Shown: one piece after another, positions 14,911-63,585 of the stretch
How positions within the stretch are numbered: the first letter of the stretch is position 1
Layout: each line of letters opens with the position of its first letter
The notes under the pieces: model-generated
Told to the model about the DNA's origin: nothing
The model's input: the letters and a program-made list of their open reading frames with translations, nothing else
Databases searched by the model: none
NCBI GenBank assembly: GCA_951406725.2
Contig: OX597818.1
Span: 100,936,001 to 101,000,000, forward strand
DNA length: 64,000 bases
DNA from: Octopus vulgaris
Lineage: Eukaryota
Reading direction: 5' to 3'
Position numbers and translations under genes: made by a program

Positions 14911-15200
14911 TCCTCGGGTATCGTATATGGATGTGATCTTTCATTGTTTTTCCCTTATTCCTATGTGAGTTATTTTTCTGAGTATACATTGTCTGGAGAC
15001 TTTTATTTGCAGTTGAAGAAATAGCCAGGTTTTTGGCTGCTATTTCGGAAAAGTTCGGTGTGTGGTAAAGTGAATTCTTTTACTTTACCATATTTTTATA
15101 AATTAATACTTCAAATATACCGTAAATGGTCTTTACATACCGAATACTGCTTGGTCGAATTTATTAATAATTAATGGATTCGCCCCCCATTTTCTCATAA
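14911..15200 (+). repeat. Left 290-bp direct repeat of a non-coding hammerhead element
   Basis: Matches 44558-44847 with one mismatch seen by eye (15183 vs 44830). Confidence 0.95.
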
Positions 15201-15517
15201 CAATATAATGCTTTCTCTCCAAGAATTTAAACTGCAGTTTTTACCTCTGTAGAAATGGAATGCTCTATGACTCACGTGGGCGGACAGGGAGAATAATAGA
15301 TCTCATTCGTATTTTTGGATTCGCTGGGACTGGGTGTTTTTTTTTCGCTCGTGAAATTCGGTAAAAAAGAACAAAAGGCGTTGTTGTTGTTGTGGAAATT
15401 CTGAACGGCGTTGATGCGGTTTCGCGTCTCACTGGTTCTGCGCGTTACACTTTTTCGGTTCGGGAGGCCGTTTTTCGGTCTGAGGCGACTATAAGCCGCC
15501 TCCATCAAGCGGAGGAG

Positions 15518-16866
15518 ATGGAAGGGAGAAATTACTCTGAAATTTCGACGGAAGTATCGACATCTGAGGAGGAGTTGGCGGTGAAAAAGATGGACGGCAC
15601 CTACGCAGGTGTAACGAAGAAGTCAACGGAAAAAGAGATAGACCTGGCTAAGTTGGCGGGCCTCCAGGAGTTTGTGAAGGAGGACGAGAACGGTGAAGTC
15701 GAGCTGCTGCATCCAGTAGGGCGCGGAGACTGGTTCCATCGTAGAACCATTAAATATAAAGTATTTATGAATGGAGGTAGAAAGATGGAAGTAATCAACA
15801 TGGAAGCAATTGAAGAGGCTCTCAAGCAGACAGGAGAGGAAATTGTGTACATGACAAAAGGATTACAATACGGAACCATAACGGTGCAATTTAAAAGCGA
15901 AAAAGCAGCCAGGAATGTAGCAGCCAAGGTGGTGAGTACAGAAAAGATTTACTTGTTACCCTCGTATCTGAATAGGCGGACAACCAGAATTAGGGTGGAG
16001 GGAATACCTCCACACCTAGAGGGCGAATTAATAACGGCTGCGGTTATAAAAGGAAATGAAGATAAAGTGGACATCCTCCACGCCATTATGAAGTATGAAG
16101 GCGTGAGAGGTGCCACACTAGTTATGAACATTCAAACGGAGGCGGATGTTATAGAGAGGATTACGGACAGCATAAAAACTGGAAATATTATTATGAGAGT
16201 GTGGGTGGAGGGTAGGGCGCCCAGGTGCTACAAGTGTGGCCAAAGGGGTCACATAAGAGCCTACTGCCCTCCCCCACCAAAGGAAAAAGAAAAGGAAAGC
16301 GTTGAGGAGGCCTCAGGAGAGGAAGAAAATAAACAGAAACAAACAGAGAAGGAAACGACAGAAGAAGAGGAGATGCAACAAGAGTGGAAAGAAGGGGGAA
16401 CAAAGAGAAAAAAGAAAGAAAAAGAAAAAACTGTGCGAAGCCCCAACCCACCCCAACACCACCCACACCCTCTGAATCCCACCCTTCCCCTACAGACAGT
16501 GAACACACCCGCTCCCCTCCAACAAGAAAACAAAAGAAAAATACAGACAGACAAGAGTTTGAAAATGAACCCAGGCCGAACATTTATATTGTGACCGAAC
16601 AGAAAGAGGTTGAAAGGGTAATGGAGGAGTATGAATGGTATGAAATGGATGGGACCAGATATGCAGTGCTGGAAAAGAAGAATATAGATGAGTTTATGTT
16701 GAGGTGTGAAAGGGTGAATTGGGAGGTGAAAGATATAAGAATGAGCGATGAATTCGTGGAATATATGGAGGACAGTTTCGGAGTAAGAATGGATATGGAT
16801 GGTCTTCGTATTGGGAATGAACATTCAGGTGACAGTGAAAACAAAAGGTCAGGTAAGTGGTGCTAG
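15518..16866 (+). pseudogene. ORF1 copy 1 (type A C-terminus), frameshifted in A-runs
   Basis: ORF split into 15392-16594 and 16384-16866. May be a homopolymer sequencing error. Confidence 0.7.
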
Positions 16867-17227
16867 CGGATGGGGCCGTTGGCACCGCTTTCATATATCA
16901 TTTTCAAAATTCATTTTACTCATATCTATGTAATTGTGATGTTCTATGTCCCCAATGTTTGTAACGTCCTCTCTATGTAGCCCCTAGTGGGTAATAAAGA
17001 AATCAATAGATCTCATTCGTATTTTTGGATTCGCTGGGACTGGGTGTTTTTTTTTCGCTCGTGAAATTCGGTAAAAAAGAACAAAAGGCGTTGTTGTTGT
17101 TGTGGAAATTCTGAACGGCGTTGATGCGGTTTCGCGTCTCACTGGTTCTGCGCGTTACACTTTTTCGGTTCGGGAGGCCGTTTTTCGGTCTGAGGCGACT
17201 ATAAGCCGCCTCCATCAAGCGGAGGAG

Positions 17228-60480: not shown

Positions 60481-62189
60481 ATAACAGTTATGCAAAAAAT
60501 ACATCAGTGCATTATTAAAGTTAAATCGCATGTTATTGGGTAAGTAACATAGCCTTGTTTTATAGTTAACTAAGTCGCGTTGAAAAATTAATCGTTGTAA
60601 CACACGGCGTAGAAAATAGATTGTAGGTGGAGTGAGTAAATTCAACACTCTGGAGTCAAATATTCAAGTTAGGAAACCTAAAACGATACTGAGATGCAAA
60701 TTGTCACTATTTCTTTCACCAAAAATGTTGAATAATAATGGACCATATCACACTGTAGGCAGTAATTGTCGTTGTTGTTTTAGTTTATTTAGTAAACATT
60801 TTATTCCTTTCAGTAGACTTGTTTTGTTATAATTAATTCAATATATTAAGGGTTGTCTCAATGTTGCACTCCACGCGGGCAACATCACGGAATAACTAAT
60901 GTCAATTACCCATGTTTCGTATTATAAATATTTATTATACAATTAAATAACCATGTCGACTTACCATTGTTTTTTTAAGCATTACAAATTCGGTACGTTT
61001 GGAAGAATGTTTAAAGAAACTAAATGTATCCTGATTTGTCTCCCGTGTTTGCAGAAATGATTAAAAACCGAGCGCATAATAATAATCCAAGAATTAACGC
61101 TCTGCTTATTTCCTAGCTAAGTATTTATAATTTAGTTTAAAATTAGACATATTCAATTATGTTTAAAAATATACTTAGAACATGTTTTAAAAACGTTTCT
61201 GTATGACAAAAAACTACAAGTTCATATTCCATTTCATTATGCAATGTAAAGAAAATAAGTCATTCAAAGAAATAAATTTTGATATTTATGTTTCTATAAC
61301 TCTTACTTGTACTTGAAGGAAATTCACACGTTGTTATGTGTACGTGTGCGTGTTCATCTGTTTGAATTGCGATATACATATATAAAACAATAAAATATTT
61401 ATTACTTCATAAAAGAACATAAGGATAAAGATCACGTTAATGATTTTTATCAAGTAGTCAGAGTGCTATAAACATTTATAGGCAATTAATAAATTAAATT
61501 AATAATAATATACATGGGTATATATTCCTGGAGTTTTTGATAGATTTTCAAGAGATTGGCACTTCTTGCATGCTGGAGACAGATCGTTTTCGCCCTAAAA
61601 CGCTTGGTATGAGAATATACATACGTACATTATCATTAATTTAATGTATTAATTGCTTATAAATTTTGTATAGTATGCTGACTACTTAAAAATAATAATT
61701 AACGTGATTTTTATACTGATATTCTTTAAAAAATAGTAAATAATTTAAATAAAATGATTTAATTGTTTCACTCCTGCCCGGAGTAGCATTTACTGCTTGA
61801 TTATTCCTATAATATACACGTTGGCTGTCGTGAGGGGATTTAAAATAGACTTTCTTCCTCTCTATGCGTGGAAAATTCGTATTTAGATGTGTGAATTCGC
61901 TTTGAACGGCGAATTATTGTACAATTATTTGGGTTTATATTTCCCAATAATTGTTGTGTTGCCGAAGAATGAAAGTTTATTTTTTGCTTTAATCCAGAAA
62001 CTGGAACAAATTTACAATTAATGTGAGTCTTTTTAATTTTCTCTCACTGCATCGTTTCAACCATGTGCATATTTAGCTGGAGTTTTTGGGTAATTTGTCT
62101 CAAGGTACGGGCACTGGAAACATGCTTCCGACAGGCTGTTTTCGCCCTAGCTCCTTTGATATAATTATATAACAATAATAGTAATAAAT

Positions 62190-62304
62190 AAAGTGATGAA
62201 GATGACGACTATGACGATGATAATAACGATGATGTTGATGATGATGATGTTGATGATGATGATGATGATGATGATGATGATGATGATGATGATGATGATG
62301 ATGA
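62190..62304. repeat. (GAT)n microsatellite
   Basis: Direct inspection; source of the poly-H/M/I ORFs. Confidence 0.95.
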
Positions 62305-62959
62305 TAAAAGGCAAAAAAAATGTCTGTCCTAACAGTAGGGCAATAATAGCATTTCCTCCCGATAGAAGTAATAGACGAAAGTGACTCTCGGAGTCTAGCC
62401 AACAATCAATCATCGCTCATGTCTTGTAACAAGTATGAGCGAACAACTTTTTGTCGAAATCAGATTTAACACCACGTGATTGATATGTTTGCGGTTGCGC
62501 CAAGCATGAAGTTTACAAATGAAATCACTATTCACTGATAAAGGTGAAAATGATGTGTAATATTCTTGGTAATTTACCAGACGCTTTCAGATAATCTGTT
62601 AAAAATCTCACCATAAGATTGAAAAGGTGATCGGAGAATGTGAAAACCAATTTTGAAGATTTATCTCGGTAATACTACAGAAATGAATAAATGGCAGAAT
62701 AGGTTCATTTAATTTATGGCACGAATGAATACAGATATGTTAAGAGACTGATGAAATCAAAATATAAAAATAAGCTCCAATGTTTTACCTGACTATAAAT
62801 AGATACGTATGTATATATATATATATATATATATATATATATATGTCTGTGTGTGTGTGTGTGTGTGTGTGTGTGTGTGTGTGTTTACATGCATACAAAA
62901 TATCTACACACACATATATTTATAAGTACATATATATTTATTTATATATATATATATAT

Positions 62960-63585
62960 ATAAGTAAAAGGGCAGGCAACATGTTGCTCTGCCGCATACC
63001 GAAAGAATTAGAAATAGCAGTCAGAGACTGTTTATTTCCATTTTCTACAAGTGGGGGCTCCATTACGACTATCCCGGTGGTGCGCATGGCAGAATTTTGG
63101 AGGGAAATTTTACGGAATCAATCGTCTACTTAGTTTTAGCCTATGCTCACTTTCCCCCCACAATTTGATGACGCCTGGTCGAAAGTGGAGGCTGGTGGCA
63201 TTTGATAAATCTAACGAAGATGGTGCTGAAGAAAGACATAAGGTAATTTCTCGCCTACGATCTAGAAACATGTTCACCATTAACGGTAAGGCATTGTTTT
63301 CATTTATTTACTCCTCCTATTTTGCGTATGTGTATTGCAGGGTTATGTCGTATATGGAGCCCCCACTTGTAGAAAATGGAAATAAACAGTCTCTGACTGC
63401 TATTTCTTATTCTTTCGGTATGCGGCAGAGCAACCTGTTGCCCGCCCTTTTACTTATATACTATATATACTGAACTCCACAGAAGTTCCCGGCGCTAAAG
63501 GTCATATTTACATACCGAAATCTACCGGTAAATATTTGTTGGTTGTCTGAAAAACCATCGAAAAAATTATTTACCCTTTTATTTT
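62960..63585 (+). mobile_element. Non-coding hammerhead element with an inverted 5' fragment, between (TA)n runs
   Basis: 62960-63063 is the reverse complement of ~63354-63458. Internal hammerhead. Shares the GCTATTTC, TTCGGTATGCGGCA and CATACCGAA motifs with the 14.9/44.5-kb and 52-kb elements. Confidence 0.85.
63220..63280 (+). ncRNA. Minimal hammerhead ribozyme
   Basis: ATGGTG-CTGAAGA-A-AGA..AGG/CCT..TCT-A-GAAA-CATG-TT|CACCAT, with a perfect 6-bp stem I and palindromic ACATGT. Confidence 0.8.

What the first reader, a model, noticed from the sequence alone, without database searches (positions are those of the whole stretch)
14990..63530. Three diverged non-coding hammerhead elements share a covarying RNA structure downstream of the ribozyme
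Seen: the elements at 14.9/44.5 kb (+), 51.8-54.3 kb (-) and 63.0-63.6 kb (+) differ greatly in sequence but keep the same order of motifs. These are a minimal hammerhead, a GAAATA...GCTATTTC hairpin, TTC(G/A)GT(A/G)TG(C/T)GG(C/T)A, and ~80-90 nt later its complement (C/T)ATAC(C/T)GAA. In the 559-bp unit TTCAGTAT pairs with ATACTGAA; in the others TTCGGTRT pairs with ATACCGAA, a compensatory change. All end in (TA)n. The autonomous Penelope element in this window lacks this module. Inference: a family of retrozyme-like non-autonomous Penelope partners with a conserved and, to my knowledge, undescribed structured 3' RNA domain.
Basis: partly seen in the sequence, partly recalled or inferred. 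Interest (0 to 1): 0.7.

Follow-up and report, generated by a model that had tools for sequence, protein, structure and literature searches.

The report
Retrozyme family with conserved priming-site fold
These are copies of a protein-free jumping element, present more than 14,000 times in this animal genome, that carries a hammerhead-ribozyme motif followed by a conserved, predicted multi-hairpin RNA domain whose two exit points sit at TA microsatellites, so the domain likely marks where a borrowed Penelope-type reverse transcriptase starts copying.

Summary
The three window elements are homologous non-coding 560-616-bp units with a type I hammerhead motif (HHR). The module motif occurs 14,195 times in the genome, with 0 control hits. 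The module is larger than first described: six predicted helices (P0 closes P1+P2; P2 closes P3+P4; P5 follows). Two distant lineages keep the layout with other letters; in a sequence-only alignment, 5 of 8 predicted P2 pairs show compensatory changes. Pairing is kept better than in a tree-aware null (0.91 vs 0.66). No single pair is significant in an R-scape-like test. New here: (TA)n junctions cluster at two sites, just after P3 and just after P5 (95 of 113), as with the two internal RT start sites (the 'tail') of Penelope-like elements. No RT-encoding element carrying the module was found in 180 PLE loci. Class: known (animal non-LTR retrozymes). The domain is absent from Rfam and from the papers searched; Dfam and Repbase could not be searched. 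Verdict: new variant of a known kind; function inferred, not shown.

The parts
14911..15337 (+). Family A unit 1: starts at the predicted HHR cleavage site (no HHR), then module (15010-15195) and the first part of the spacer
   Evidence: 99.7% identical to 44558-44847; CM hit 148 bits; uninterrupted 564-bp A dimer at L011/L012
44426..44505 (+). Family A: rest of the spacer, after the inserted gag-like array
   Evidence: continues the L012 spacer
44506..44563 (+). Family A type I hammerhead motif; predicted cleavage after 44559 (GUC)
44656..44832 (+). Family A module: P0 44656-60/44793-97, P1 44665-71/44687-93, P2 44701-09/44783-91, P3 44710-37, P4 44766-77, P5 44800-32; (TA)n from 44851
   Evidence: fold z -6.6
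51789..51822 (.). (TA)n at the 3' junction of family C (site 2, after P5)
51823..53970 (-). Family C: about 3.8 tandem 559-bp units, each HHR plus module (modules 51828-52017, 52387-52576, 52946-53135, 53505-53694)
   Evidence: longest ATG-started sense ORF 18 codons
53971..54277 (+). Family C inverted arm (HHR 54021-54073), ending after P3 near site 1; (TA)n 54277-54314
62950..63069 (-). Family B inverted arm ending at site 1 in (TA)n
63222..63278 (+). Family B type I hammerhead motif; predicted cleavage after 63274 (GUU)
63369..63575 (+). Family B module: P0 63369-73/63521-25, P1 63379-63406, P2 63414-22/63511-19, P3 63424-46, extra hairpin 63472-88, P5 63527-75; (TA)n from 63585

Best explanation
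These are non-coding, tandemly repeated elements with a hammerhead motif and a conserved six-helix predicted RNA domain, which likely serves as the binding and start signal for a borrowed Penelope-type reverse transcriptase/endonuclease that likely nicks (TA)n and begins copying at one of two fixed points in the domain. Shown: unit anatomy, copy number, inverted 5' arms, (TA)n junctions at two sites, and pair maintenance. Inferred steps: (1) Read-through transcription of tandem units, possibly from the conserved spacer. (2) HHR self-cleavage, probably as a dimer because helix III is short and often palindromic, giving unit-length linear or circular RNA. (3) The PLE protein binds the folded module and primes from nicked (TA)n on the AU-rich linker just 3' of hairpin P3 (site 1, inside the P2 multiloop) or of hairpin P5 (site 2). 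(4) A fold-back or template switch yields the inverted arm, and more-than-unit copying yields tandem arrays. The partner is most likely a (TA)n-targeting Hydra- or Neptune-clade element, but it is unidentified.
For: 14,195 motif hits vs 0 control. HHR cleavage site to P2 is 139-148 nt in 27 of 29 copies with an HHR call, out of 94 examined. (TA)n starts at +40-59 or +130-159 from P2 in 95 of 113 A-D instances that have a (TA)n within 330 nt (134 examined); lineage E 21 of 23 and lineage F 23 of 24 show the same two windows. After dropping 15 reference-edge rows, 46 of 73 mapped 5' ends join an inverted arm, and 6 of 73 lie within 2 nt of the predicted cleavage site vs 0.84 expected locally (Poisson p 2e-4). 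Structure: 88.5% of cells paired with 0/500 shuffles as high; leaves paired 0.91 vs 0.66 under independent evolution on the tree, 0/1000; WC-to-GU changes 38.7 vs WC-to-AC 16.5, and P2 GU 19 vs AC 2, which fits a sense-strand RNA; RNAalifold recovers P2 across lineages A-F with 5 of 8 pairs compensatory; fold z -4.1 to -6.6 in six representatives. Literature: a Poseidon RT starts at two internal sites downstream of its HHR, in a stem-loop, which explains the 'tail' (PMC11167929); Hydra PLEs insert in (TA)n and carry HHRs (PMC8557442, section 11); retrozymes derive from PLE pLTRs (bioRxiv 10.64898/2026.07.22.740005).
Against: No RT-encoding element with the module was found in 180 PLE loci; hits there were separate insertions away from the ORF's own 3' end. 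The all-pairs covariation test found no significant pair (best E about 7). Same-branch double changes were 2.0 vs 0.84 (p 0.055). P0 and P3 show no GU excess (8 vs 13 and 9 vs 8), and P4 maintenance is not significant (p 0.06). Lineages E and F were found with a structure model or a complementarity-demanding pattern, so their P2 pairing is partly selected for. In B and F the antisense strand folds as well or better. Site sampling is biased by the search patterns. Expression and cleavage are not shown.
Confidence: 0.65

Rival explanations
1. The module is simply the pseudo-LTR 'tail' of an autonomous PLE family that exists, or is already catalogued, but was not sampled here; the retrozymes are its deletion derivatives.
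For: Xenopus retrozymes match PLE pLTRs (bioRxiv 10.64898/2026.07.22.740005). An octopus repeat library lists 190 Penelope-like consensus sequences (PMC13282606 supplement), far more than were sampled here. A Hydra family (L339/L363) has two (TA)n sites 67 nt apart and a similar-looking end.
Against: No hit in any PLE's own tail with two CMs. The tails resolved for Neptune and Hydra families differ in sequence. The Hydra resemblance is by eye only and has no CM support.
Confidence: 0.35
2. The helices exist for circular-RNA stability or HHR folding (a viroid-like self-paired circle), and the two (TA)n junctions reflect only chance AU microhomology with the target.
For: Metazoan retrozyme circRNAs are predicted to be highly self-paired (PMC7229834). 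Both junction regions are AU-rich linkers.
Against: The units are AT-rich throughout, yet junctions cluster about 5-25 nt after two specific hairpins in three lineages with different sequence. The fold is a local branched domain at a fixed distance from the HHR.
Confidence: 0.15
3. The 'structure' is a by-product of the inversion mechanism: template switching makes local inverted repeats that are then inherited without selection.
For: Inverted arms are common and do create new perfect hairpins, for example in L437. P5 is an AT-rich near-palindrome.
Against: The long-range P2 helix is kept over about 80 nt with a GU excess over AC (19 vs 2) and with compensatory letters between lineages. A DNA inverted repeat would decay symmetrically.
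Confidence: 0.07

Closest known systems
Animal non-LTR retrozymes (Cervera & de la Pena 2020, PMC7229834; Li, Clavereau & Pollet 2026, bioRxiv 10.64898/2026.07.22.740005)
   Same: Non-coding, low-GC tandem units, each with a type I HHR; thousands of copies; coexist with PLEs.
   Different: Units are 560-616 bp, against the 170-400 nt of the 2020 paper (the 2026 preprint reports up to 972 bp). The passages read describe no conserved branched domain, two fixed start sites, (TA)n targeting or inverted arms. Circular RNA and self-cleavage are not shown here.
PLE pseudo-LTR 'tail' and internal RT initiation (Poseidon PAc; Frangieh et al. 2024, PMC11167929)
   Same: Two RT start sites downstream of an HHR, in structured RNA, at an AT-rich target; RNA 3' of the start site is part of the template.
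   Different: Here the element is non-coding, the sites are about 95-100 nt apart (the Penelope tail is 30-40 bp), and the surrounding fold is kept across lineages with changed letters.
Hydra-clade PLEs (Craig et al. 2021, PMC8557442)
   Same: Carry HHRs and insert into (TA)n; abundant in this genome. One family shows two start sites.
   Different: They encode RT and GIY-YIG endonuclease; none sampled carries the module.

Membership tests
Animal non-LTR retrozyme | Type I HHR motif in each repeat unit | tested here: met
   pattern-based; Rfam gave no HHR hit
Animal non-LTR retrozyme | [quoted passage not shown] | tested here: met
   four 559-bp units at 51.8-54.0 kb; arrays of 559-616 bp elsewhere
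Animal non-LTR retrozyme | No protein coding, no LTR/PBS/PPT organisation | tested here: met
   longest sense ORF 18 codons in family C; PLE protein matches in module loci lie outside the elements
Animal non-LTR retrozyme | HHR self-cleavage | tested here: inconclusive
   indirect only: 6 of 73 5' ends within 2 nt of the predicted site; no assay
Animal non-LTR retrozyme | Accumulates as unit-length circular RNA | not testable with these tools
   only assembled contigs of runs guessed to be RNA were available
Autonomous EN+ PLE | RT plus GIY-YIG ORF between pLTRs | tested here: not met
   no ORF in the unit; no ORF-linked module in 180 PLE loci
PLE-mobilised element | Inverted 5' arm / partial tandem insertion structure | tested here: met
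   46 of 73 mapped 5' ends (both arms of one insertion can be counted)
PLE-mobilised element | Two alternative 3' ends ('tail') | tested here: met
PLE-mobilised element | Sequence shared with the pLTR of a known autonomous PLE | tested here: inconclusive
   none found in the loci sampled; Repbase and Dfam not available

The most novel reading that the evidence does not exclude
The module is a free-standing, telomerase-RNA-like recruitment and start-site domain: a GG-closed hairpin followed by CCU and an AU linker positions a PLE RT on (TA)n. At least three to five retrozyme lineages have kept it although no living autonomous element carries it, so parasites evolved a better RT substrate than the host pLTR. 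That would give a portable RNA handle for internal RT initiation and microsatellite-targeted insertion.
Probability: 0.25. Interest if true: 0.75.

Novelty: new variant of a known kind. Interest (0 to 1): 0.5.

Why it matters
How Penelope-like RTs, the closest relatives of telomerase, choose their RNA and start internally is known from one in vitro system. A natural series of non-coding substrates with a fold kept across lineages and two mapped start sites turns that into a direct test: which helices bind the protein, and which set the start. It also bears on how animal retrozymes move, which is still a hypothesis. The class itself is known, which caps the interest.

Tried and rejected
Rfam: no HHR or module match in the window or in four other loci; only rRNA, simple-repeat and hairpin hits below their gathering scores, plus one tRNA hit outside the element. 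Metagenome motif hits: 80 of 118 loci were scanned with the CM and gave 0 hits, so the short motif alone is chance outside this genome. Partner search through a GIY-YIG family scan, two endonuclease motif patterns and the window's Hydra endonuclease, with longer flanks fetched: no partner. Many loci had only 1.5-kb flanks, and the tails of several families stayed unresolved. The gag-like array as cargo or partner was rejected: none of the first 30 of 199 genomic 3' ends lies beside family A. The all-pairs covariation test was negative. Expression: no RNA holder is on record; four runs guessed to be RNA hold contigs across the unit, but with 14,000 DNA copies this is no evidence. Earlier scan notes: nothing in this genome or by sequence.

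Full report
Setting. The window lies in a 2.8-Gb animal assembly of 227 contigs. Size and repeat content look octopus-like; that is an inference and was not tested.

Observation. Type I HHR motifs, the GAAATA...GCTATTTC hairpin, the TTCRGTRTGYGGYA motif and its downstream complement are present in three families, here called A (14.9/44.5 kb), C (51.8-54.3 kb) and B (63 kb). The core has 9 matches against 0 in 100 shuffles. The 14.9-kb copy starts 2 nt before the predicted cleavage site, lacks the HHR, and is the first unit of an A dimer. A gag-like array of 1.7-kb units sits inside its spacer. That array belongs to a dispersed family; none of the first 30 of its 199 genomic 3' ends is next to family A. 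The window's autonomous element (56350-58882, minus) has the DKT and CxCx5C motifs that Craig et al. give for the Hydra clade. Its own HHR near 54.4 kb is followed by only about 45 nt before (TA)n, and it has no module hit.

Family. The short motif occurs 14,195 times in the genome with 0 control hits; a pattern needing both P2 strands gives 5,275. Tandem units measure 545-616 bp and share spacer motifs. Of 94 module copies examined, 29 had an HHR call upstream, and 27 of these lie 139-148 nt from P2; one is at 128 and one is a mis-parse.

Structure. Single-sequence folds of 24 representatives repeatedly gave P1, P2, P3 and P5. I added P0, which closes P1 and P2 (A GCAGU/ACUGC, B GUAGA/UCUAC, others AGUAG/CUACU). 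On a 21-sequence MAFFT alignment, 88.5% of cells paired and 10 pairs had double changes; 0/500 shuffles reached the paired fraction, but that control ignores relatedness. With 27 of 29 non-redundant sequences (two with chimeric 5' arms dropped), an R-scape-like all-pairs test found no significant pair. A tree-aware test of the named helices gave 0.91 of cells paired vs 0.66 under independent evolution (0/1000). Same-branch double changes were only 2.0 vs 0.84 (p 0.055), and P4 alone was not significant. GU outnumbered AC 93 to 31 cells, driven by P2, P4 and P5. The CM then found two distant lineages: E (L290, L373; 2,217 first-look candidates) and F (L373, L429-449; 21 hits to a strict pattern). 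Each has its own HHR and the same helix order. In a sequence-only alignment of 23 A-F sequences (B left out), RNAalifold recovered P2 with 5 of 8 pairs compensatory. Because E and F were found with structure-aware queries, this evidence is partly circular. Their HHRs and junction positions are independent of that selection. Fold z-scores were -4.1 to -6.6 in six representatives; the sense strand was more stable in four of six.

Mechanism clue. In lineages A-D, 113 of 134 instances had (TA)n within 330 nt of P2; 59 began at +40-59 (just after P3) and 36 at +130-159 (just after P5). E (21 of 23) and F (23 of 24) show the same two windows. The counts include inverted arms, and the search patterns bias the mix. 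Site 1 lies inside the P2 multiloop, so copying from it would leave half the fold downstream, as expected for internal initiation. Frangieh et al. showed two internal RT starts in a stem-loop downstream of the HHR of a Poseidon element and equated them with the PLE 'tail' (PMC11167929; main text read). On the 5' side, 115 of 197 instances could be assigned to a reference; 27 ran on in tandem and 15 were dropped as reference-edge artefacts. Of the remaining 73, 46 join an inverted arm and 6 end within 2 nt of the predicted cleavage site against 0.84 expected. This is modest, indirect support for cleavage in vivo.

Partner. 180 loci with Neptune-, Nematis- and Hydra-like ORFs (clade labels partly recalled) were scanned with the second model. 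The module hits were separate insertions, mostly bounded by (TA)n, and none formed an ORF's own 3' end. Several families target (TA)n and have their own, different HHR tails. One Hydra family has two (TA)n sites 67 nt apart and resembles the module by eye only. The sample is incomplete and some tails were out of reach, so an autonomous carrier is not excluded.

Literature seen. Retrozyme preprint 10.64898/2026.07.22.740005: abstract to discussion (its supplements are closed and may list related families). PMC8557442: passages and section 11. PMC7229834 and PMC4209133: passages. PMC13282606: passages and a supplement search; the main text had 0 hits for hammerhead, ribozyme or retrozyme, and the supplement had 0 for hammerhead or ribozyme. 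Eight searches listed no description of this domain; the library lacks most subscription papers, and Dfam and Repbase were not available.

Verdict. A real, large family of non-LTR retrozymes with a conserved branched RNA domain that carries two start sites. The class is known; the domain appears undescribed. Its role as RT-binding and start signal is inferred (0.65). Interest 0.5.

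Noticed in passing
window 15338-44425 (+): Tandem array of about 17 units of about 1.7 kb, each a gag-like zinc-knuckle ORF without RT, ending GTGGGTAATAAAGAAATC. Most units also carry about 43 nt of the flanking retrozyme spacer. Similar short arrays with other flanking DNA occur elsewhere (L333-L337). Looks like an ORF1-only non-LTR family that amplifies in place.
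   Followed up: partly
window 54315-58882 (-): 5'-truncated, frameshifted Hydra-clade PLE. The family is young and abundant (many 98%-identical copies, 842-aa frames; 19,294 first-look candidates for its endonuclease), with more than ten other Hydra variants.
   Followed up: partly
L339, L363-L367 (G000:C1): Hydra family in 2.58-kb tandem arrays, with an HHR core variant CCGAAGA and two (TA)n junctions 67 nt apart; best, but weak, partner candidate.
   Followed up: partly
L038, L040, L055, L454: Active 781-aa Neptune-like family whose HHR has the U3-A8 core variant (TTGATAA), with CCAAT/CRE-like repeats in its 3' region.
   Followed up: no
L390:9630-9830 (-), L020, L033; L292 (minus-strand HHRs): Further non-coding (TA)n-ending families that share only parts of the module: GCTGCTATTTCTA plus a P3-like hairpin, or P4/P5-like hairpins.
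   Followed up: no
spacers of families A, C, D, L067, L076 (e.g. window 15273-15290): Conserved CACGYKGG...GGG, TTGAATTYG and TTTCAAAT motifs upstream of the HHR; possible internal promoter.
   Followed up: no
window 51752-51816 and 58824-58887: Inverted 65-nt duplication bracketing family C and the Hydra element, suggesting both landed in the (TA)n of an older insertion.
   Followed up: no
window 1-2570 (+): 5'-truncated, GC-rich LSU rRNA copy.
   Followed up: no
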